From Candidatus Falkowbacteria bacterium (GTDB taxonomy: Bacteria > Patescibacteriota > Patescibacteriia > UBA11705 > JABHMO01): 64,000 bases of DNA. The stretch spans positions 8,553-72,552 of the forward strand of contig JABHAL010000013.1 of NCBI GenBank assembly GCA_018674305.1. The letters run 5' to 3'. Positions 3,373 to 55,767 of this stretch are shown one piece after another (the first letter of the stretch is position 1; the number at the start of each line of letters is the position of its first letter). The notes beneath the pieces are model-generated. The model was given only the letters and a program-made list of their open reading frames with translations, ran no database searches and was not told where the DNA came from. The translations under genes were made by a program, and so were the position numbers.

Positions 3373-5124
3373 TTATTTTCCGTTTTTAATACTGATCACA
3401 ATTTCATCTCCTTCGTTAATACCTTCAAGAATTTCCACGTTACCGTTTGAACCACGAAGACCGGTTCTAACTTTTACTTCTGTGAAATCAAGTCCGTCTT
3501 CATTTAATATTCGAACAATTTTATCACCGTTTTGTTTTAGAATTGCTCTTTGTGGAACGCTAATTACATTTTCCTTTTTTTCAGTTAAAATATCTAGGTC
3601 AGCGGTCATTCCAGATTTAATTAAATCACTTTCCTCATCAAATTGAAAAGTAACTTTATAAGTTGGCACATTATCAATAATGGTTTCCGCTGGGTCAATT
3701 TTAATTACTGTGGCCTGGAATTCTTTATCGCTACTATATGCGTCAAGAGTTACAATTCCAATATCGTCAATTTTAATATTAGCAATATCCACTTCCGGTA
3801 CGTTAGCCTCGATTTGATACTTTGCTTCAGAAATTACAGTTATGACTTGTGAATTTGCTGCCACAATTTCACCCAACTTAGCATCAATTTTAGTTACAAT
3901 GCCCTGAATGGGGGAGGTTATATATGTCTTACCAATTTGGGCTTGATAATTAGCTACATTGGCCTGCGCGGATTTAATTGAAGCTAGCTGAGAATCAACA
4001 TTTGCTTGAGCTTGGTCAACTTTTGCTTGTTGAGCAGCAATTTGCTCTGAGGTATAGCCAGCCTGAGATAAGGTTAGTTCGTTTTGTGCAGTGGTTATAA
4101 CACTTTGTTTTGTGTTAACAGTAGTCTGTGCCGCAATAATGTTACTTTCACTTGTTGCTTTCTGGAGAATAATAGCTTGTTCTTTCGTTGTTAAAGCCGT
4201 TATCTCAGAATCAATATCAGTTTTTTCTGTATTTATAATAGTAATATTAGCAGAGCTCATTTCTAAAACGATTGGTATGTTATTCAATTCAGTTTTAACG
4301 GTTTGTATAGCGTTTTTTACGGTTTGTAGGGCATTGTCAATGTTGCTATGAGTTGGATCAGCTTGGGTACTTAACAAAATCCCTTTTGCGCCACCAGTTA
4401 AACCGCTTAGATTGCTTTTTGTCCAACGACCAGCATTGGTCGCTCCCCAAATTGGATAAATCATATTACCTTTAGCCGTTGAGAACTTTGAACTGTCCTG
4501 GTCATTGTCATTAAAATAGGTAGCTTGAATATCCGTAATTGTATAAATAGTGTTTTCTGCTGTAGTTATGGAAGTAGACAGTGCGTTGAGTGCAGCTTCA
4601 TAGTCTTCAGCCAAGTCAGTAGTCGCTTTGTTTTGTACATTAGTTAAATTTGATTGAGCGTCAGTCAAAGCAACCAAAGCATTATTAACAGCAGTTTGTT
4701 TTATTTGTAATGTTTCAGGTCTAGTGCCCAGTTTGTATTCTTCTAACGTAGATTGTTGCGTGGCCAAGGCCGCTTGGTATTGAAGTAATTGCGCCTTAGC
4801 TTGATCAACTTGAGCAGAAGCTTGATTACGTTGCGCCGCCAGATCAGCATTATTTAATCTTAGCAATACTTTTCCCTTGAAGACTTGATCACCAACCTTA
4901 ACGGGTAAATAGGTCACTTTACCGCTTTTTTCCAAGGCTAAATCAACTTCTTCAGCAGCTTGCACTGAACCTGTAATGCTGATTTCTTGAATTAGCTCTC
5001 CAGCCTGAATTTCAAGAGTGTCAAATTCAGGTAGTACAGGTTTTTTGGCTTGGTAAATGAAAAAACCAACGATGATAATAACGATGACTGTAATGATCCA
5101 AAAACTTTTTTTCTTGTAAAACAT
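3373..5124 (-). CDS. HlyD-family periplasmic adaptor (MacA-like) with very long coiled-coil
   Basis: 583 aa. N-terminal TM anchor (FWIITVIVIIIVGFF), a biotinyl-lipoyl-like beta-hairpin, a long Q/A-rich coiled coil and a C-terminal beta-barrel. Lies adjacent to the ABC ATPase and permeases. Confidence 0.7.
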   Translation of the reverse strand: MFYKKKSFWIITVIVIIIVGFFIYQAKKPVLPEFDTLEIQAGELIQEISITGSVQAAEEVDLALEKSGKVTYLPVKVGDQVFKGKVLLRLNNADLAAQRNQASAQVDQAKAQLLQYQAALATQQSTLEEYKLGTRPETLQIKQTAVNNALVALTDAQSNLTNVQNKATTDLAEDYEAALNALSTSITTAENTIYTITDIQATYFNDNDQDSSKFSTAKGNMIYPIWGATNAGRWTKSNLSGLTGGAKGILLSTQADPTHSNIDNALQTVKNAIQTVKTELNNIPIVLEMSSANITIINTEKTDIDSEITALTTKEQAIILQKATSESNIIAAQTTVNTKQSVITTAQNELTLSQAGYTSEQIAAQQAKVDQAQANVDSQLASIKSAQANVANYQAQIGKTYITSPIQGIVTKIDAKLGEIVAANSQVITVISEAKYQIEANVPEVDIANIKIDDIGIVTLDAYSSDKEFQATVIKIDPAETIIDNVPTYKVTFQFDEESDLIKSGMTADLDILTEKKENVISVPQRAILKQNGDKIVRILNEDGLDFTEVKVRTGLRGSNGNVEILEGINEGDEIVISIKNGK

Positions 5125-7704: not shown

Positions 7705-8124
7705 ATGCCTACAATAAATCAACTAGTTAGAAAAGGTAGAAAGAGTAAAAGCTCAAAGTCAAAAACTCCGGCTTTGCAAACTGTTTTTAATACTTTAAAA
7801 AGACGTCGTAGGACTTTACCAAAAGGCGCCGCTTTTAAACGTGGTGTATGTTTAAAGGTTACAACTACAACACCAAAGAAACCTAATTCAGCTTTGCGTA
7901 AGATCGCTCGTGTTCGACTTTCGAATGGACAAGAAGTAACAGCATACATCCCAGGTGAAGGCCATAATTTGCAAGAGCATTCAATTGTAATGTTACGTGG
8001 TGGTCGAGTAAAAGATTTGCCGGGTGTACGTTACCATGTTGTGCGTGGAGTTTATGATACTCAGGGTGTTGAAGGCCGAAAACAATCAAGGTCTTTGTAC
8101 GGAGCCAAGAAAGAGAAGAAATAA
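7705..8124 (+). CDS. rpsL: 30S ribosomal protein S12
   Basis: [12 protein letters not shown]...[47 protein letters not shown], canonical S12. Confidence 0.97.
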
Positions 8125-8146
8125 ATAAGGATACTCTTAAAAGATG

Positions 8147-8212
8147 CGAAACACGGATGTTTCGTAAACAAACTAACAAAATAATTAGGTAAGCGAGACA
8201 TCACTGTCTCGC
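8147..8212 (+). promoter_or_regulatory. two perfect hairpins in rpsL-rpsG intercistronic spacer (candidate S7 feedback site)
   Basis: cgaaac-acggat-gtttcg (8147-8164) and gcgagaca-tcac-tgtctcgc (8193-8212), within an unusually long 184-nt rpsL-rpsG gap. Confidence 0.4.
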
Positions 8213-8308
8213 CCAACTCTAAATAAATTATAATAAGATAAGTTGGGAGTAATATGTGATAACTGAAATATCAATTATTACATGTGAATCTAAACTAACT
8301 TAAATTCT

Positions 8309-8806
8309 ATGCGTGGAAAACAAGCACCAAAGAGAAAGATAAAGACGGATATTCGCTACAATTCAGCCCTTGTCAGTAAGTTTATCAATTATTTAATGGA
8401 AGACGGTAAAAGAGCAGTCTCACAAAAAATTGTGTATGATTGTTTTGAGATAATCCAAAAGCAGATTGATACTGGCAAAATTAAAAAAGAGGAGTTTCCA
8501 ACTGCTCTTAGTGTTTTTGATCAAGCAGTAAAAAATGTTACTCCGCAAATGGAAGTTCGTGGTCGGCGAATAGGTGGTGGTAATTATCAGATTCCATATC
8601 CAGTTCGTGGTGAACGAAAACAATTTTTATCTTTGCATTGGTTAATAACTGCAGCAAAGAAGAAAAAAGGTAAACCAATGCACATCAAATTATCTGATGA
8701 GTTGGTAGCTGCTATGAATAGTGAGGGCGATGCTTTCAAGAAGAAAACAGACGTTCATAGAATGGCTGATTCTAATCGAGCATTTGCTCATTTTGCGCGT
8801 TATTAA
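8309..8806 (+). CDS. rpsG: 30S ribosomal protein S7
   Basis: 165 aa whose sequence matches bacterial S7 throughout, placed between rpsL and fusA. The in-frame ATG at 8396 (MEDGKRAVSQ) would give a conventional 136-aa S7 if the N-terminal 29 residues are not translated. Confidence 0.93.
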   Translation: MRGKQAPKRKIKTDIRYNSALVSKFINYLMEDGKRAVSQKIVYDCFEIIQKQIDTGKIKKEEFPTALSVFDQAVKNVTPQMEVRGRRIGGGNYQIPYPVRGERKQFLSLHWLITAAKKKKGKPMHIKLSDELVAAMNSEGDAFKKKTDVHRMADSNRAFAHFARY

Positions 8807-31203: not shown

Positions 31204-31279
31204 GCTCGTATAGCTCAGGGGTTAGAGCACCACGCTTATAACGTGGGGGTCGATGGTTCAATCCCATCTACGAGCACCA
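31204..31279 (+). tRNA. tRNA-Ile (anticodon UAU)
   Basis: Manual fold: acceptor gctcgta/tacgagc, D stem gctc/gagc, anticodon stem ccacg/cgtgg with loop cuUAUaa, T arm gatgg-ttcaatc-ccatc, discriminator a and encoded CCA. Confidence 0.75.
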
Positions 31280-31328
31280 GTTGTATTTATATTTTGAGAC
31301 TCGACGCAATTTTATTTACGAGTACTAG

Positions 31329-31405
31329 GGACGCTTAGCTCAGTTGGTTAGAGCGCATCGTTGACGTCGATGAGGTCAGTGGTTCGACTCCACTAGCGTC
31401 CACCA
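31329..31405 (+). tRNA. tRNA-Val (anticodon GAC)
   Basis: Acceptor ggacgct/agcgtcc, D stem gctc/gagc, anticodon stem catcg/cgatg with loop ttGACgt, T arm agtgg-ttcgact-ccact, encoded CCA. Confidence 0.85.
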
Positions 31406-31440
31406 AAAAATCATCAATTTACTTTGGTGTTTTTTTATTA

Positions 31441-31510
31441 CGGTCTATGGTTCGCCCAGCATACGCTGGGCGCCCGGCGTATGCCGGGCGACTCCACTAG
31501 CGTCCACCAT
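31441..31510 (+). repeat. partial copy of tRNA-Val T-arm/acceptor 3' end interrupted by two GC-rich hairpins
   Basis: tggttcg + [cccagc-atac-gctggg][cgcccggc-gtat-gccgggcg] + gactccactagcgtccacca. The last 20 nt are identical to tRNA-Val 31386-31405. A terminator hairpin (gcaccg...cggtgcTTTTT) follows at about 31513-31545. Confidence 0.6.
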
Positions 31511-48952: not shown

Positions 48953-49648
48953 ATGTTAACTCCTGAACACAATTTAACTGAACGCTCACTCCAAGCTAAC
49001 TTCACCGAAGTTCAGCAAGCTCATTTCGATAAATTAATGTCTGAATTAGAAGTGATTTCAGATGGTTTGGGTTTTGCTGAGCTTAAAGCAAAGGCTGAAG
49101 AGGGAGATAAAGAAGCCCTTCAGGTAATGAGGGATTATATTACTAAGAAAGAACAGATTGTTGAGTTTATTGAGAAGAAGGAAGTGCCTGAGAATGAGTG
49201 GCGTGAAGAGGAACTTAAAGTTGGAGATGAGGTCTTTGTTTTGAATACTGCGCATTTTGGAGAAAAAGTGAAAATTTTAGATATTAACGATTTAGGTAAA
49301 GTTAAAAGGTATTATGTTAAGGTCAAGGAAGGTGCCAATACAAATTTACGATTTTTTCAGGATTGGTATTTAGCCAAAAATAAACCAGAAGAATTTGATG
49401 CTGATCGAGCGGGTAAAATTTATTTACTTGATTTAAAAAAATATAACGGGCTTACTGTCGGCGATTTTTTTTCTAAAGGTGTAGAAAATAGAGAAATTTT
49501 AGGTTTCAAAATGCCAGAACATCCCCATCACCGAGTCGGATTAACGATTGTTGTTAAAAAAGACGGCGAGGCAACATTTTTAATGTCATACAAAAGATTC
49601 ATAGAACTAAATGAGGAGCAAAATTATAAAAAAGTCGAAAAGTCTTAA
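48953..49648 (+). CDS. family-X paralog E (231 aa): N-terminal module + SH3/KOW-like units
   Basis: N-terminus MLTPEHNLTERSLQANFTEVQQAHFDKLMSELEVISDGLGFAELKAKAEEGDKEALQVMRDYITKKEQIVEFIEKKEVPENEW. The C-terminus is colinear with F, G and H. Confidence 0.65.
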   Translation: MLTPEHNLTERSLQANFTEVQQAHFDKLMSELEVISDGLGFAELKAKAEEGDKEALQVMRDYITKKEQIVEFIEKKEVPENEWREEELKVGDEVFVLNTAHFGEKVKILDINDLGKVKRYYVKVKEGANTNLRFFQDWYLAKNKPEEFDADRAGKIYLLDLKKYNGLTVGDFFSKGVENREILGFKMPEHPHHRVGLTIVVKKDGEATFLMSYKRFIELNEEQNYKKVEKS

Positions 49649-49689
49649 ACACGTAACACATAACACGTATCCTGTAACAATCATAAAAA

Positions 49690-50385
49690 ATGTTAAATCC
49701 CGAACAACAATTAATAGAAAGATCTCTTCACGCTAACTTCACTGAAGTTCAGCAACAACATTTTGATAAACTAATGTCTGAGCTGGAACAGATTTCAGGT
49801 GGTTTAGGTTTTTCTGAATTTAAAGCTAAAGCTGAAACTGGTGACAAAGAAGCATTACAAGTAATGCGTGATTATATCGCCAAGAAAGAGCAGGTTGTTG
49901 AGTTTATTGAGAAGAAGGAAGTTCCTGAGAATGAATGGCGAGAGGAGGAGCTTAAAGTTGGAGACGAGGTTTTTATATTGTATGCCGCACATTTTGGAGA
50001 AAAAGTAAAAATTATAGATATTGACGATTTAGGTAAAGTTAAAAAGTATCATGTTCAGGTCAGTGTAGTTGACGATACAAATTCTCGGTTTTTGAAAGAT
50101 AGTCAATTAGCTAAAAATAAACCAGAAAAATATTATGCTGACAGATTGAGTGAAATTGATTTACTGGACTTGAAAAAATATATAGATCTTTGTGTGGACG
50201 ATGTTTATTCTGATGGTCAGGAGATAAAAGAAATTATTGGGTTTATGATGCCAATCGCTGCAAATCATGAGGATGGTTTAACAATAGTGTATAAAGCAAC
50301 TAATGGTCAGACATATGCAACATCATACAGACGTTTTAAACAGATTAATCGTGGACTCGATTATAAAAAAGTAGAAAAGTCTTAA
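49690..50385 (+). CDS. family-X paralog F (231 aa)
   Basis: Full-length homolog of E (N-terminal module plus VGDEVFIL..GEKVKII..LAKNKPEKY..LLDLKKY). Confidence 0.65.
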   Translation: MLNPEQQLIERSLHANFTEVQQQHFDKLMSELEQISGGLGFSEFKAKAETGDKEALQVMRDYIAKKEQVVEFIEKKEVPENEWREEELKVGDEVFILYAAHFGEKVKIIDIDDLGKVKKYHVQVSVVDDTNSRFLKDSQLAKNKPEKYYADRLSEIDLLDLKKYIDLCVDDVYSDGQEIKEIIGFMMPIAANHEDGLTIVYKATNGQTYATSYRRFKQINRGLDYKKVEKS

Positions 50386-50447
50386 GCGTATAGCGTGAAT
50401 CGTATAGCGCGTAACACATATCCCGTACCCCGTAACAAAATTAAAAT

Positions 50448-51158
50448 ATGATCAATCCCGAGCAACAATTAACAGAAAAATCTCTCCATGCTAACTTTAC
50501 CGAAGTTCAGCAACAACATTTTGATAAACTAATGTCTGAGTTGGAGGTGATCTCAGGTGGATTAGGTTTTGCTGAACTTAAAGAGAAGGCTGACGCGGGT
50601 AATAAAGAAGCATTGCAAGTAATGCGTGATTATATCGCCAAGAAAGAGCAAATTGTTGAGTTTATTGAAAAGAAGGAGATGCCTGAGAATGAATGGCGAG
50701 ATGAGGAATTCAAGTTTGGTGATGAAGTCTATATAGTGGGAGGGGGTTATTCTGGTAGAAAAGGAACAGTTGAGAATAATGATAGTTCTGGTAACGTAAT
50801 TCGAGTACTGGTTTTTAGCAAAGATGAGAATGGCGATGCCGAAATAATTTATTTTAATCCTGAAGATGTAGCCAAAAATAAACCGGAAAAAATCCAATCT
50901 GACCGACTTGGTGAAATTGAGTTACTTGATTTGAAAAAATATGAAGATTATGCTGTTGGTGATATTTTTGTGCGACATAATAGGACTAAAACAAAAACAA
51001 GAGAGATTTTAGGTTTTAGTATGCCTGATAGCTTTACTCACGAAGAAGGCCTGAAAATTGTTTTTAAATATGGTGATGGTGATGTGTATACTGCACGTCG
51101 CTTCAGATTCGAGAATGAAATTATTGCTTTAGTTTACAAAAAAGTAGAAAAGCCTTAA
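50448..51158 (+). CDS. family-X paralog G (236 aa)
   Basis: Full-length homolog of E and F. Its first ~65 nt are identical to H, and it has a near-identical 62-nt upstream spacer. Confidence 0.65.
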   Translation: MINPEQQLTEKSLHANFTEVQQQHFDKLMSELEVISGGLGFAELKEKADAGNKEALQVMRDYIAKKEQIVEFIEKKEMPENEWRDEEFKFGDEVYIVGGGYSGRKGTVENNDSSGNVIRVLVFSKDENGDAEIIYFNPEDVAKNKPEKIQSDRLGEIELLDLKKYEDYAVGDIFVRHNRTKTKTREILGFSMPDSFTHEEGLKIVFKYGDGDVYTARRFRFENEIIALVYKKVEKP

Positions 51159-51220
51159 GCGTATAGCGTGAATCGTATAGCGCGTAACACATATCCCGTA
51201 TCCCGGAACAAAATTAAAAT

Positions 51221-51925
51221 ATGATCAATCCCGAGCAACAATTAACAGAAAAATCTCTCCATGCTAACTTTACCGAAGTTCAACAACGATATTTTGATAA
51301 ATTAATGTCTGAATTGGAAGTGATCTCGGATGGTTTGGGTTTTACTGAACTTAAAGCGACTGCTGAAGCGGGTAATAAAGAGGCTCTTCAAGTAATGAGG
51401 GATTATATCTCCAAGAAAGAACAGATTGTTGAGTTTATTGAGAAAAAAGAATTGCCAGAAGTAAATGAATTGAGAGACGAGGAATTAAAAGTTGGTGATG
51501 AGGTTTTTATATTAGAGAATTTTTCATTTGGAGCAACGGGCAAAATATTAAGTATTCCTAGAAGTTCGGATAGTAAAGCTTTTATGGTTGATGGAATTAA
51601 GGATAGTAATAATCCTTCAATGAAAGAATATGGATTTGAAGGACGATTGTTGGCCAAAAATAAGTCAGAAAAATATAATGCTGATAGACTTGGTGAAATA
51701 GATTTGCTAGACTTAAAAAAGTATAACGATATAACAGTTGGTGATATTTATCGCTCCGAGGATGGTAAAGGAGAAATAGAAGTTGTTGGCTTAAGTATGC
51801 CAATAAATGCTAAGATTGAAGATGGTCTATTAATTGTGTATAAAATAGGTAATGGGCAAACGTATGCCAAGTTAAATCGCTGGTTTCGGCGAGATCTTAA
51901 AGCTCGTAATTATAGAAAAGCATAG
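51221..51925 (+). CDS. family-X paralog H (234 aa)
   Basis: Full-length homolog of E, F and G. Confidence 0.65.
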   Translation: MINPEQQLTEKSLHANFTEVQQRYFDKLMSELEVISDGLGFTELKATAEAGNKEALQVMRDYISKKEQIVEFIEKKELPEVNELRDEELKVGDEVFILENFSFGATGKILSIPRSSDSKAFMVDGIKDSNNPSMKEYGFEGRLLAKNKSEKYNADRLGEIDLLDLKKYNDITVGDIYRSEDGKGEIEVVGLSMPINAKIEDGLLIVYKIGNGQTYAKLNRWFRRDLKARNYRKA

Positions 51926-55498: not shown

Positions 55499-55584
55499 GC
55501 CCAGGTGGTGGAATTGGTATACACACATGGTTGAGGGCCATGGCTCTCCGGGGCGTGCGGGTTCAAGTCCCGCTCTGGGCACCA
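55499..55584 (+). tRNA. tRNA-Leu (anticodon GAG), type II with long variable arm
   Basis: Acceptor gcccagg/tctgggc (G7-U66), anticodon stem catgg/ccatg with loop ttGAGgg, variable arm gctctccggggcgt, T arm gcggg-ttcaagt-cccgc, discriminator a and encoded CCA. Confidence 0.8.
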
Positions 55585-55590
55585 CTATGT

Positions 55591-55658
55591 AAACAGGGGT
55601 TCAGCCGGCATGCGCCGGCTGCCCGGCGAATGCCGGGCAAGTCCCGCTCTGGGCACCA
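55591..55658 (+). repeat. partial copy of tRNA-Leu T-arm/acceptor 3' end interrupted by two GC-rich hairpins
   Basis: aggggttca + [gccggc-atgc-gccggc][tgcccggc-gaat-gccgggca] + agtcccgctctgggcacca. The last 21 nt are identical to tRNA-Leu 55564-55584. The second hairpin shares the core gcccggcgWatgccgggc with the element at 31441..31510. Confidence 0.6.
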
Positions 55659-55767
55659 TAAGAATTTTATTATTAAAAATAAGATTCTTTTTTTGTTGAT
55701 AAATTTTTTATATATAAGCATAAATATGGTATAATTTAATTGCATAATTATTAATTGCGTATATTTT

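What the first reader, a model, noticed from the sequence alone, without database searches (positions are those of the whole stretch)
55559..55700. Second instance: tRNA-Leu 3' half duplicated with inserted hairpin pair sharing a conserved core with the tRNA-Val element
caagtcccgctctgggcacca (21 nt) repeats 74 nt downstream. The copy reads ggggttca + gccggcATGCgccggc + tgcccggcGAATgccgggca + agtcccgctctgggcacca, that is T-loop ttca|insertion|agtccc. The core gcccggcgWatgccgggc matches the tRNA-Val element. The insertion point inside the T-loop is the same for both. Recurrence at two unrelated tRNAs argues for a sequence-specific process such as a homing insertion, integrase or retro-element target, or templated repair, rather than chance.
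Basis: seen in the sequence. Interest (0 to 1): 0.65.

Follow-up and report, generated by a model that had tools for sequence, protein, structure and literature searches.

The report
Mobile double hairpin splitting tRNA T-loops
Just after an intact tRNA-Leu gene lies a 74-base unit in which two GC-rich hairpins are wedged into a copy of the tRNA's T-loop and 3' end. The same unit recurs at many tRNA genes of Patescibacteria, often beside a small GIY-YIG nuclease gene, so it is most likely a gene-less copy of an undescribed selfish element that homes into tRNA genes.

Summary
The intact tRNA-Leu(GAG) gene (55499-55584) is followed by an 11-nt spacer, GGGGTTCA, hairpin 1, hairpin 2 and an exact copy of the tRNA's last bases. 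tRNA-Val(GAC) at 31329-31509 has the same layout, and a contig of the same lineage has it at tRNA-His.

It is not an artefact. Three independent assemblies carry it, with one or two tandem units. Relatives with the same gene order lack it.

It is one member of a family. I found about 60 instances in Patescibacteria-type contigs. In all of them the hairpin pair sits between GGTTCR and ANTCC, that is, between tRNA positions 57 and 58, with a 2-nt CR redundancy. Hairpin 1 stems covary with no broken pair.

Many family members have an 81-92 aa GIY-YIG nuclease ORF next to the hairpins and an intact tRNA. Five nuclease loci fetched without regard to hairpins all lay directly upstream of an intact tRNA, and four carried the T-loop hairpins.

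The split motif, GGTTCRANTCC, is the published core of the recognition site of phage T4 SegB, a GIY-YIG homing endonuclease.

Best reading: an ORF-less remnant or non-autonomous copy of a GIY-YIG-linked homing element. Integrase and retro-element readings are not supported. I found no Rfam family or paper describing it. The mechanism is inferred, not shown.

The parts
55499..55584 (+). Intact tRNA-Leu(GAG) gene with encoded CCA. Its last 21 nt (55564-55584, tRNA positions C56-A76) are the first copy of the repeat.
   Evidence: ARAGORN; Rfam RF00005 at 50.2 bits; repeat D2.
55585..55595 (+). Spacer CTATGTAAACA between the tRNA 3' end and the T-arm remnant. It is part of the 74-nt unit that is duplicated in some strains.
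   Evidence: Sequence; the unit occurs twice in L039 and L040.
55596..55603 (+). Left half of a split T-arm, GGGGTTCA (tRNA positions ~50-57). Only 7 nt match the real tRNA (GGGTTCA).
   Evidence: Sequence; all family members keep (G)GTTCR here.
55604..55619 (+). Hairpin 1: GCCGGC-ATGC-GCCGGC. The stem varies and covaries across the family. The apical GC-ATNC-GC is conserved.
55620..55639 (+). Hairpin 2: T-GCCCGGC-GAAT-GCCGGGC-A. The closing T-A pair covaries with A57. The last 2 nt (CA) repeat C56-A57.
55640..55658 (+). Copy of the tRNA 3' part, A58 to CCA: AGTCCCGCTCTGGGCACCA. With the preceding CA it forms the second 21-nt repeat (55638-55658).
55660..55696 (+). AT-rich hairpin followed by a T-run. 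Probably the terminator of the tRNA-Leu transcription unit, which would place the 74-nt unit inside that unit.
   Evidence: Inverted repeat I5; hairpin plus U-run in the RNA fold. The consensus scan did not list it because it has too few G-C pairs.
31329..31405 (+). Intact tRNA-Val(GAC), the partner instance in the window.
31442..31509 (+). tRNA-Val unit: T-arm remnant GGTCTATGGTTCG (31442-31454), hairpin 1 CCCAGC-ATAC-GCTGGG (31455-31470), hairpin 2 C-GCCCGGC-GTAT-GCCGGGC-G (31471-31490), and tail copy ACTCC...CCACCA (31491-31509). The 21-nt exact repeat of 31385-31405 lies at 31489-31509.

Best explanation
The 74-nt unit is an ORF-less copy (a remnant or non-autonomous derivative) of a mobile element family found mainly in Patescibacteria that targets the T-loop-coding DNA of tRNA genes.

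What is shown:
- In full members a small stand-alone GIY-YIG nuclease gene (81-92 aa) lies next to the double hairpin and an intact tRNA.
- The hairpin pair always sits between R57 and A58 of a tRNA gene copy, splitting the motif GGTTCR^ANTCC, with a 2-nt CR redundancy.
- One intact tRNA is kept beside a duplicated half-tRNA. Either a 5' half lies upstream or, as in this window, a 3' tail lies downstream.

What is inferred:
1. The nuclease, or a partner, makes a double-strand break with a 2-nt 3' overhang in the T-loop motif, as T4 SegB does.
2. Repair copies the element from an occupied locus.
3. The hairpins mark the junction and destroy the target motif in the disabled copy.
4. Recombination between the duplicated tRNA parts later deletes the ORF or expands the unit. 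This leaves 'tRNA - spacer - GGTTCR - hairpins - tail' arrays such as the one or two units seen in different strains here.

The unit lies between the tRNA and its terminator, so it is probably carried on the precursor transcript as a passenger.
For: (1) Family. The genome and metagenome pattern scans gave about 60 true instances in low-GC contigs, many of them labelled Patescibacteria. Thirty-five of 42 metagenome hits were true, and all were followed by A-N-T-C-C and sat at tRNAs, although the pattern ended at hairpin 2.

(2) Structure. The two hairpins are 99.7% paired over 24 distinct cores. Four of six pairs in hairpin 1 covary, with 39 double changes, none broken and no G-U pairs. A single long palindrome is not supported. 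Hairpin 2 variants GTCCGGC/GCCGGAC and GTCCAGC/GCTGGAC are compensatory.

(3) Nuclease linkage. GIY-YIG ORFs (Pfam PF01541, E 1e-12 to 1e-18) lie within about 120 nt of the hairpins in a dozen or more distinct loci.

(4) Protein-first test. Five distinct loci of GIY-YIG homologues were fetched without regard to hairpins. In all five the ORF lies directly upstream of an intact tRNA, with a disabled tRNA copy upstream. Four of the five carry the T-loop double hairpin.

(5) The ORFs are under purifying selection, with median dN/dS of 0.13.

(6) Precedent. T4 SegB is a GIY-YIG homing endonuclease whose essential recognition element is GGTTCRANTCC. It leaves 2-nt 3' overhangs, and T4 itself keeps cleavable sites (PMC2330249).

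(7) Junctions between resident and incoming DNA. In L134 the upstream 5' half (T-stem GAGGG) matches the last tail (CCCTC), not the intact tRNA between them (CAGGG/CCCTG). In L052, L166, L173, L176 and L182 the tail comes from a different allele of the same amino-acid type. In L200 and L178 the 5' half differs from the intact gene.

(8) Presence/absence. Relatives with the same gene order (70-76% identity in a flanking protein) have tRNA-Leu(GAG) without the unit. Strains differ in copy number.

(9) Same lineage. tRNA-His carries an identical hairpin block. A divergent GIY-YIG ORF sits beside tRNA-Thr, with a disabled tRNA-Thr copy upstream.
Against: - No GIY-YIG ORF lies in the 64-kb window. 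Activity here, if any, would have to come in trans or be past.
- The nuclease is a bare catalytic domain. Its closest solved relatives are the UPF0213 proteins 1zg2 and 1ywl. It has no DNA-binding domain like that of SegB or I-TevI, so sequence-specific cleavage of the T-loop motif is unproven.
- The intact tRNA beside the element still carries the presumed target.
- No single-step pathway for the half-tRNA duplication is established. Other GC-rich hairpins occur in D loops, anticodon loops and tails of the disabled copies. The hairpins could therefore have a mobility of their own.
- My patterns required GTTCR upstream, so 'always in a T-loop' is partly built into the search. The 3' side and the tRNA context were not required.
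- Both hairpin 2 stem arms (GCCCGGC/GCCGGGC) were fixed in the patterns, and CATNCG of hairpin 1 was fixed in the metagenome scan.
Confidence: 0.55

Rival explanations
1. The double hairpin is an autonomous miniature palindromic element, comparable to REP or RPE repeats or to mitochondrial GC clusters. It inserts into T-loop-like DNA by its own route, for example by microhomology or replication slippage. It survives only in dispensable tRNA copies. The GIY-YIG genes merely share the same tRNA neighbourhoods.
For: - Many instances have no ORF nearby, including all three in the window's lineage.
- Other, unrelated GC-rich hairpins sit in D loops, anticodon loops and tails of disabled tRNA copies.
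- The hairpin block is identical between the Leu and His loci, which share a 15-nt T-arm. That fits homology-driven copying.
- Only Watson-Crick pairs occur, as expected for a DNA palindrome.
Against: - Four of five nuclease loci chosen blind to hairpins carry the T-loop hairpins, and all five lie directly upstream of an intact tRNA. That is far above a chance meeting.
- Only two copies occur in 64 kb, and none outside tRNA context. Dispersed REP- or MITE-type families behave differently.
- It does not explain why half-tRNA duplications accompany the hairpins.
Confidence: 0.2
2. The unit is a functional structured RNA in the 3' trailer of the tRNA precursor. It might be a processing or stability signal, or a decoy that mimics the T-arm and acceptor 3' strand.
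For: - The unit lies between the tRNA and its terminator on the sense strand, so it is probably transcribed.
- The hairpins covary strongly.
- The covariance model scores higher on the sense strand.
Against: - There are no G-U pairs in 336 paired cells.
- The same hairpins also sit upstream of intact tRNAs in truncated 5' copies, followed by an ORF.
- Copy number is polymorphic, and close relatives do without it.
- Tails are sometimes diverged alleles.
- There is no Rfam family.
Confidence: 0.1
3. The repeat is an attL/attR-type scar of an integrase-mediated integrative element that used the tRNA 3' end as its attachment site.
For: Direct repeats of a tRNA 3' part that begin in the T-loop are the classical signature of tRNA-integrating elements (established knowledge). 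One locus, L213, has a Xer-like recombinase gene nearby.
Against: - There is no recombinase in the window around either site, or in most family loci.
- The 'element' between the repeats is only about 50 nt.
- The second repeat is interrupted by the hairpins.
- 5' halves are duplicated as often as 3' tails.
- L213 lacks the T-loop hairpins.
Confidence: 0.03
4. The tail copy is a reverse-transcribed piece of mature tRNA. Synthesis would start at the CCA end and stop near m1A58, and the product would be inserted by a retro-element.
For: In the window both copies end exactly at the encoded CCA, and the copy begins near position 58.
Against: - In other members the copy ends after C74, or runs 5 nt into the trailer (L162). 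Some intact genes lack the CCA that the tail copy has (L183, L107).
- The exact repeat starts at C56.
- 5' halves, with a few upstream nucleotides, are duplicated too.
- No reverse transcriptase was seen at any locus.
Confidence: 0.02

Closest known systems
Free-standing GIY-YIG homing endonuclease genes of the Seg type, especially phage T4 SegB in the T4 tRNA gene cluster (PMC2330249)
   Same: - A GIY-YIG nuclease gene embedded among tRNA genes.
- The DNA motif involved is GGTTCRANTCC, which encodes the T-psi-C stem-loop.
- SegB leaves 2-nt 3' overhangs, which matches the 2-nt CR redundancy at the hairpin junction here.
- Presence/absence polymorphism between relatives.
- The host genome keeps cleavable sites.
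   Different: - SegB is a longer, phage-encoded protein that recognises a 27-bp site. The proteins here are 81-92 aa UPF0213-like catalytic domains on bacterial chromosomes.
- The SegB passages I read describe no hairpin module and no half-tRNA duplication.
- The window copy has no ORF.
- Cleavage by these proteins is untested.
Integrative elements and prophages that insert into tRNA genes and carry a replacement 3' part (attL/attR repeats)
   Same: The tRNA stays intact because a duplicate part is supplied. A direct repeat of the 3' part starts in the T-loop.
   Different: There is no integrase. The units are tens of nucleotides, or about 350 nt with the ORF. The repeat is split by hairpins. 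5' halves are duplicated as well.
Small GC-rich palindromic repeats in AT-rich genomes: yeast mitochondrial GC clusters, Rickettsia palindromic elements, REP/BIME (from my own knowledge)
   Same: Short GC-rich hairpin-forming inserts in a 35% GC genome. They tolerate insertion into RNA genes or pseudogenes. Copy number is variable.
   Different: Those families are dispersed in many contexts. This one is confined to one position of tRNA genes, is linked to a nuclease ORF, and is rare per genome (two copies in 64 kb).
Group I introns, some with homing endonuclease genes, in tRNA genes of Patescibacteria (PMC13011429)
   Same: Selfish insertions in tRNA genes of the same phylum.
   Different: Those are self-splicing introns of hundreds of nucleotides in the anticodon loop (positions 35/36 and the classical site). 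The paper never mentions the T-loop, hairpins or GIY-YIG. The unit here is 36 nt plus flanks, has no group I match in Rfam, and sits in gene fragments that cannot be spliced into a tRNA.

Membership tests
Free-standing GIY-YIG homing endonuclease cassette (Seg type) | A GIY-YIG endonuclease ORF is part of the element | tested here: not met
   No GIY-YIG ORF lies in the window (motif scan; tblastn). In other family members the ORF is present (PF01541, E down to 6e-18). The window copy can therefore only be an ORF-less derivative.
Free-standing GIY-YIG homing endonuclease cassette (Seg type) | The insertion or cleavage target is a conserved host gene site. For SegB that site contains GGTTCRANTCC. 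| tested here: met
   In all ~60 instances the hairpin pair splits GGTTCR^ANTCC. The SegB site is taken from PMC2330249. The upstream half of the motif was required by my patterns. The downstream half was not.
Free-standing GIY-YIG homing endonuclease cassette (Seg type) | Presence/absence polymorphism between close relatives, with the empty site intact | tested here: met
   The syntenic tRNA-Leu(GAG) in L203-L206 lacks the unit. Strains of the same species have one or two units.
Free-standing GIY-YIG homing endonuclease cassette (Seg type) | The encoded enzyme cleaves the empty allele, and the element is copied in by repair, with co-conversion of flanks | not testable with these tools
   There are only indirect hints: allele switches exactly at the hairpin junction (L134, L052, L182, L176, L166, L200, L178).
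Integrase-mediated tRNA-integrating element (att scar) | A tyrosine or serine recombinase gene is associated with the repeat | tested here: not met
   None flanks either window site or most family loci. The single Xer-like gene, in L213, is not next to T-loop hairpins.
Integrase-mediated tRNA-integrating element (att scar) | An uninterrupted identical core is repeated at both ends of a kb-scale element | tested here: not met
   The repeats lie 74 or 104 nt apart, and the second T-loop is interrupted by 36 nt of hairpins.
REP/MITE-like dispersed palindromic repeats | Many dispersed copies in varied intergenic contexts | tested here: not met
   The covariance model with filters off finds only the two tRNA-linked copies in 64 kb. 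All true hits from the two big scans lie in tRNA context.
tRNA intron (group I or archaeal bulge-helix-bulge type) | It interrupts an otherwise complete gene and has the intron's catalytic or recognition structure | tested here: not met
   With the hairpins removed, the copy has no 5' half and ARAGORN calls no tRNA. There is no group I or other Rfam match.
Any curated RNA family (Rfam 15) | A match to a covariance model at or near the gathering score | tested here: not met
   Only tRNA models match. The other hits are weak and far below threshold.

The most novel reading that the evidence does not exclude
The family could be a new class of DNA mobile element: a cassette bounded by copies of a double hairpin that carries its own replacement tRNA gene. 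A bare UPF0213/Slx1-like GIY-YIG nuclease would move it by recognising DNA structure (an extruded T-arm or hairpins) rather than a long sequence. A more extreme version is that the hairpins plus the adjacent tRNA-derived 19-21 nt act as a guide-like RNA that directs the nuclease to tRNA genes.
Probability: 0.12. Interest if true: 0.85.

Novelty: new variant of a known kind. Interest (0 to 1): 0.62.

Why it matters
If the reading is right, streamlined Patescibacteria genomes host a selfish element that uses a solution I found in no paper or RNA family. It invades essential tRNA genes at their most conserved motif. It avoids killing the host not by splicing, as introns do, and not by integrase-borne 3' ends, as prophages do, but by keeping one intact tRNA beside a hairpin-disabled half copy.

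Practical and scientific consequences:
- It would explain odd tRNA fragments, tandem tail repeats and contig breaks at tRNA loci in assemblies of these bacteria.
- It offers a natural marker of horizontal exchange between uncultured lineages.
- It points to a testable activity for a clade of the uncharacterised UPF0213-type stand-alone GIY-YIG proteins.
- It extends the SegB precedent, a nuclease aimed at the T-psi-C motif, from a phage to cellular chromosomes.

Tried and rejected
- **Bare hairpin 2 pattern on viral contigs.** It gave 37 hits, all GC-rich terminator-like noise with no T-loop context. Two refined patterns gave 0 viral hits, so there is no sign of a phage vector.
- **First genome-wide pattern.** I filtered them by GC content, by hairpin 1 pairing and by a tail repeat upstream. 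The scan never reached the window's own genome, so the census per genome is incomplete.
- **Rfam.** No family was found at gathering or E-value thresholds.
- **Literature.** Six full-text searches found no description. The Patescibacteria tRNA-intron paper concerns anticodon-loop group I introns only.
- **One long 40-nt palindrome or cruciform instead of two hairpins.** Covariation does not support it.
- **Integrase scar, reverse transcription of mature tRNA, tRNA intron.** All rejected on anatomy (see the rivals and membership tests).
- **Composite fold of tRNA plus copy.** The minimum-energy fold pairs the 5' acceptor strand with the distal tail. This is an equal-energy alternative and says nothing about function.
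- **GIY-YIG gene in the window.** None found. A divergent one lies in a contig of the same lineage, next to tRNA-Thr.
Full report
**1. The observation**

The window is about 35% GC. It comes from a Patescibacteria genome: an identical flanking protein is named Candidatus Falkowbacteria in NCBI. ARAGORN and Rfam find three tRNA genes: Ile(UAU), Val(GAC) and Leu(GAG).

Downstream of tRNA-Leu (55499-55584) the sequence reads as follows:
- spacer CTATGTAAACA
- GGGGTTCA
- GCCGGC-ATGC-GCCGGC
- T-GCCCGGC-GAAT-GCCGGGC-A
- AGTCCCGCTCTGGGCACCA

The exact repeat is 21 nt (55564-84 and 55638-58, 74 nt apart) and spans tRNA positions C56 to A76. tRNA-Val has the same layout with a 104-nt period (31385-31405 and 31489-31509).

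The shared core GCCCGGCGNATGCCGGGC occurs nowhere else in the window, and never in shuffles. A covariance model of the unit, run with filters off, finds only these two copies. An AT-rich hairpin with a T-run follows the last tail copy at both loci. The unit therefore lies between the tRNA and its probable terminator.

**2. It is real and polymorphic**

The same locus is present in independent ENA, JGI and NCBI assemblies.
- The window and L038 have one 74-nt unit.
- L039 and L040 have two in tandem.
- L040 starts inside the tRNA. This is a contig break at the repeat, so assembled copy numbers should be read with care.

Four relatives have the same gene order (arginyl-tRNA synthetase, bactofilin, lipid kinase, ferredoxin, tRNA-Leu, small membrane protein, YraN) and 70-76% identity in the kinase. 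They have tRNA-Leu(GAG) but no hairpin unit. The unit is therefore a lineage-specific insertion.

A 448-kb contig of the same project and base composition carries tRNA-His(GUG), a 51-nt spacer, and a hairpin block 100% identical over 50 nt to the Leu block. That block is followed by a copy of the His tail. At least three tRNAs of this lineage are affected.

**3. It belongs to a family**

The low-GC hits were all the same object.
- A refined pattern run on metagenome contigs gave 42 loci, of which 35 are true and 7 are GC-rich chance hits.
- Together this gives about 60 instances and 38 distinct cores.

The consensus is (G)GTTCR, then hairpin 1 (a stem of four or five variable pairs plus a conserved GC-ATNC-GC apex), then Y-GCCCGGC-NNNN-GCCGGGC-R, then A-N-T-C-C.

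The 3' flank and the tRNA context were not part of the metagenome pattern, yet every true hit has them.

The tRNAs involved are mostly Ser, but also Val, Leu, His, Thr, Gln, Arg, Lys and Pro. Several tRNAs are hit within one MAG or one sample. The records are labelled Falkowbacteria, Moranbacteria, Andersenbacteria and 'Patescibacteria group'. A few are MAGs labelled Bdellovibrionales, Gamma- or Deltaproteobacteria, and I did not verify those labels.

No viral contig carries it.

**4. Structure**

On 24 distinct cores the two-hairpin model is 99.7% paired.
- Four of the six pairs of hairpin 1 covary, with 39 double changes, none broken and no G-U pair.
- The closing pair of hairpin 2 is C-G with TTCG loops and T-A with TTCA loops.
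- A single long palindrome is no better than shuffled controls.
- Hairpin 2 was fixed by my patterns. Loci reached through the protein instead show compensatory variants: GTCCGGC/GCCGGAC and GTCCAGC/GCTGGAC.

The absence of G-U pairs fits a DNA-level palindrome better than an RNA stem, but this is weak evidence.

**5. Anatomy across the family**

Two mirror-image configurations occur.
- **Configuration B, as in the window:** intact tRNA, a spacer of 2-51 nt, (G)GTTCR, the hairpins, then a tail from A58 onward. It is sometimes tandem: 3 units of 62 nt in L134, 2 of 78 nt in L060, 2 of 105 nt in L180.
- **Configuration A:** upstream flank and tRNA positions 1-57, the hairpins, only AATCC(C), a short leader, then an intact tRNA. 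An ORF is usually present between the leader and the tRNA.

In both configurations only 5-6 nt of T-loop and stem are kept on the truncated side.

L168, L134 and L215 have both configurations around one intact tRNA with an ORF, and L088 has both without an ORF. In L183 hairpin units flank the ORF and tRNA-Ser(UGA), but the left unit follows an intact tRNA-Ser(GCU) rather than a 5' half.

The 3' limit of the first tail copy varies. It ends after C74 (L183, L107), after A76 (the window), or 5 nt into the trailer (L162). The duplication is therefore a DNA event and not a copy of mature tRNA.

**6. The nuclease link**

- In a dozen or more distinct loci an ORF of 81-92 aa lies next to the hairpins, on the tRNA strand. 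Its sequence pattern is MYYVYIL..K..K.YIGYT.DL..R..EH..GKV.STK.R.P..L.CYEAY....EA..RE.FLKSSDGKKD.RKR.
- It sits 15-25 nt after hairpin 2 and 0-33 nt before the intact tRNA, or between the tRNA and a hairpin-tail unit.
- It is a GIY-YIG catalytic domain (PF01541, E 1e-12 to 6e-18).
- Its nearest solved relatives are the UPF0213 proteins 1zg2 and 1ywl. There are only weak matches to intron and homing endonuclease models.
- Sixteen ORFs align end to end. Median dN/dS is 0.13, although dS is near saturation.

As a test not biased by hairpin patterns, I searched for homologues of one ORF (61 clusters, named GIY-YIG nuclease family protein). I fetched five distinct loci chosen only for contig length.
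- In all five the ORF lies directly upstream of an intact tRNA (Gln, Ser, Ser, Arg, Ser), with a disabled tRNA copy upstream.
- Four carry the T-loop double hairpin.
- The fifth has other hairpins in the D and anticodon loops.

The window itself has no such ORF. The tRNA-His contig of the same lineage has a divergent GIY-YIG ORF just after tRNA-Thr, with a disabled tRNA-Thr copy upstream.

**7. Signs of incoming versus resident DNA**

- In L134 the upstream 5' half has T-stem GAGGG and loop TTCG. This pairs with the last tail (CCCTC). The intact tRNA between them has CAGGG/CCCTG and loop TTCA.
- That pattern is what one expects if a cassette 'hairpins - ORF - own tRNA - hairpins' sits inside a resident tRNA split between G57 and A58. 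It rests on one compensatory pair, so it is suggestive only.
- In L052/L181 (Gln), L182/L194 (Val), L176/L195 (Lys), L166 (Arg) and L173 (Ser), the tail after the hairpins is a different allele of the same amino-acid type. The differences are ones that would need matching changes in the 5' strand.
- In L200 and L178 the upstream 5' half differs from the intact gene.

The allele switch thus coincides with the hairpin junction.

**8. Mechanism: the best-supported reading, marked as inference**

The closest precedent is phage T4 SegB, a free-standing GIY-YIG homing endonuclease in a tRNA gene cluster.
- The essential part of its 27-bp site is GGTTCRANTCC.
- It leaves 2-nt 3' overhangs.
- Its own genome keeps cleavable sites (PMC2330249).

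The hairpin pair here splits exactly that motif, and the 2 nt C56-R57 are present on both sides of the insert. They agree in 22 of 24 cores. A 2-nt 3'-overhang break that is not resected before new DNA is copied in would leave this pattern.

I therefore propose the following steps. Each is inferred, none is shown.
1. A break in the T-loop motif.
2. Repair from an occupied locus.
3. Retention of one intact tRNA.
4. Disabling of the other copy by the hairpins.
5. Later recombination between the duplicated tRNA parts, which removes the ORF or changes the unit number.

The window's Leu and Val units would be such ORF-less products. The identical Leu and His hairpin blocks, flanked by a shared 15-nt T-arm, fit copying or conversion between loci through T-arm homology.

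Weak points:
- The protein is a bare catalytic domain.
- The intact tRNA keeps the presumed target.
- Extra unrelated GC hairpins accumulate in disabled copies, so the hairpins may have a life of their own.
- The first duplication at a new tRNA has no established route.

**9. Comparison and novelty**

Rfam 15 has no family for the unit. Six full-text searches found no description. The recent survey of tRNA introns in Patescibacteria deals with anticodon-loop group I introns and never mentions the T-loop, hairpins or GIY-YIG.

The unit works most like a Seg-type homing cassette. It differs in the hairpin junction module, the half-tRNA duplication, the minimal nuclease and the cellular host. It fails the tests for an integrase scar, a dispersed REP/MITE family, a tRNA intron and a retro-copy.

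I rate it a new variant of a known kind. The family assignment is well supported. The mechanism is inferred at moderate confidence.

Noticed in passing
window 31308-31328: Just upstream of tRNA-Val lies a decayed copy of the tRNA-Ile 3' part. AATTTTATTTACGAGTACTAG compares with AATCCCATCTACGAGCACCAG (A58 to the end, plus G). It is 15/21 identical, and all six differences are C to T. No hairpins are present. It may be an older relic of the same kind of event.
   Followed up: partly
window 31204-31279: tRNA-Ile with anticodon UAU. From my own knowledge this is an uncommon way to read AUA in bacteria.
   Followed up: no
window 48953-51925: Four tandem paralogous ORFs of 231-236 aa, 55-68% identical to each other, with no Pfam hit on record.
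   Followed up: partly
L205 3530-3600 (relative of the window's species): A 5' fragment of tRNA-Leu lies upstream of the intact tRNA-Leu(GAG). It carries a different hairpin (CCGCTGTTCACGAACAGCGG) inserted in the D-loop. Similar D-loop or anticodon-loop hairpins occur in the disabled tRNA copies of L134, L088, L164, L185, L057, L107 and L213.
   Followed up: partly
L165 7800-8440 and 1410-1450: In the window's lineage a divergent GIY-YIG ORF (8094-8349) follows tRNA-Thr(UGU). A disabled tRNA-Thr copy with an anticodon-loop insertion lies upstream. The repeat TTCGCTCC..GTCGGAGCTNCGAATGGCNCAGCC lies upstream of the ORF, an interrupted copy follows it, and another copy follows the tRNA-His tail copy. 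This repeat is absent from the window.
   Followed up: partly
L204 about 3826-3885, L205 about 3724-3760, L206 about 3793-3845: In relatives that lack the GC hairpin unit, the tRNA-Leu CCA end is followed by a variable hairpin and then a conserved TGGTAAA(C/A)CATT motif. Its TGGT is complementary to the tRNA's ACCA end. Meaning unknown.
   Followed up: no
L215 1800-1905: The tail copy after a variant double hairpin carries a further GC-rich palindrome (GCCGCCTGCCTGCC-GGTA-GGCAGGGCAGGCAGGC) inserted after AATCCCTCCCT, ahead of the repeated CTCCCTCTCCGCCA. The same locus has two tandem '5' half - hairpins - ORF' units, and the second ORF is internally deleted.
   Followed up: partly
L040 position 1 (GCA_018670895.1 contig JABHIS010000019.1): The NCBI contig begins inside the tRNA-Leu T-arm, directly before two tandem units. 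This is an assembly break at the repeat, so such units may fragment MAG assemblies at tRNA loci.
   Followed up: no
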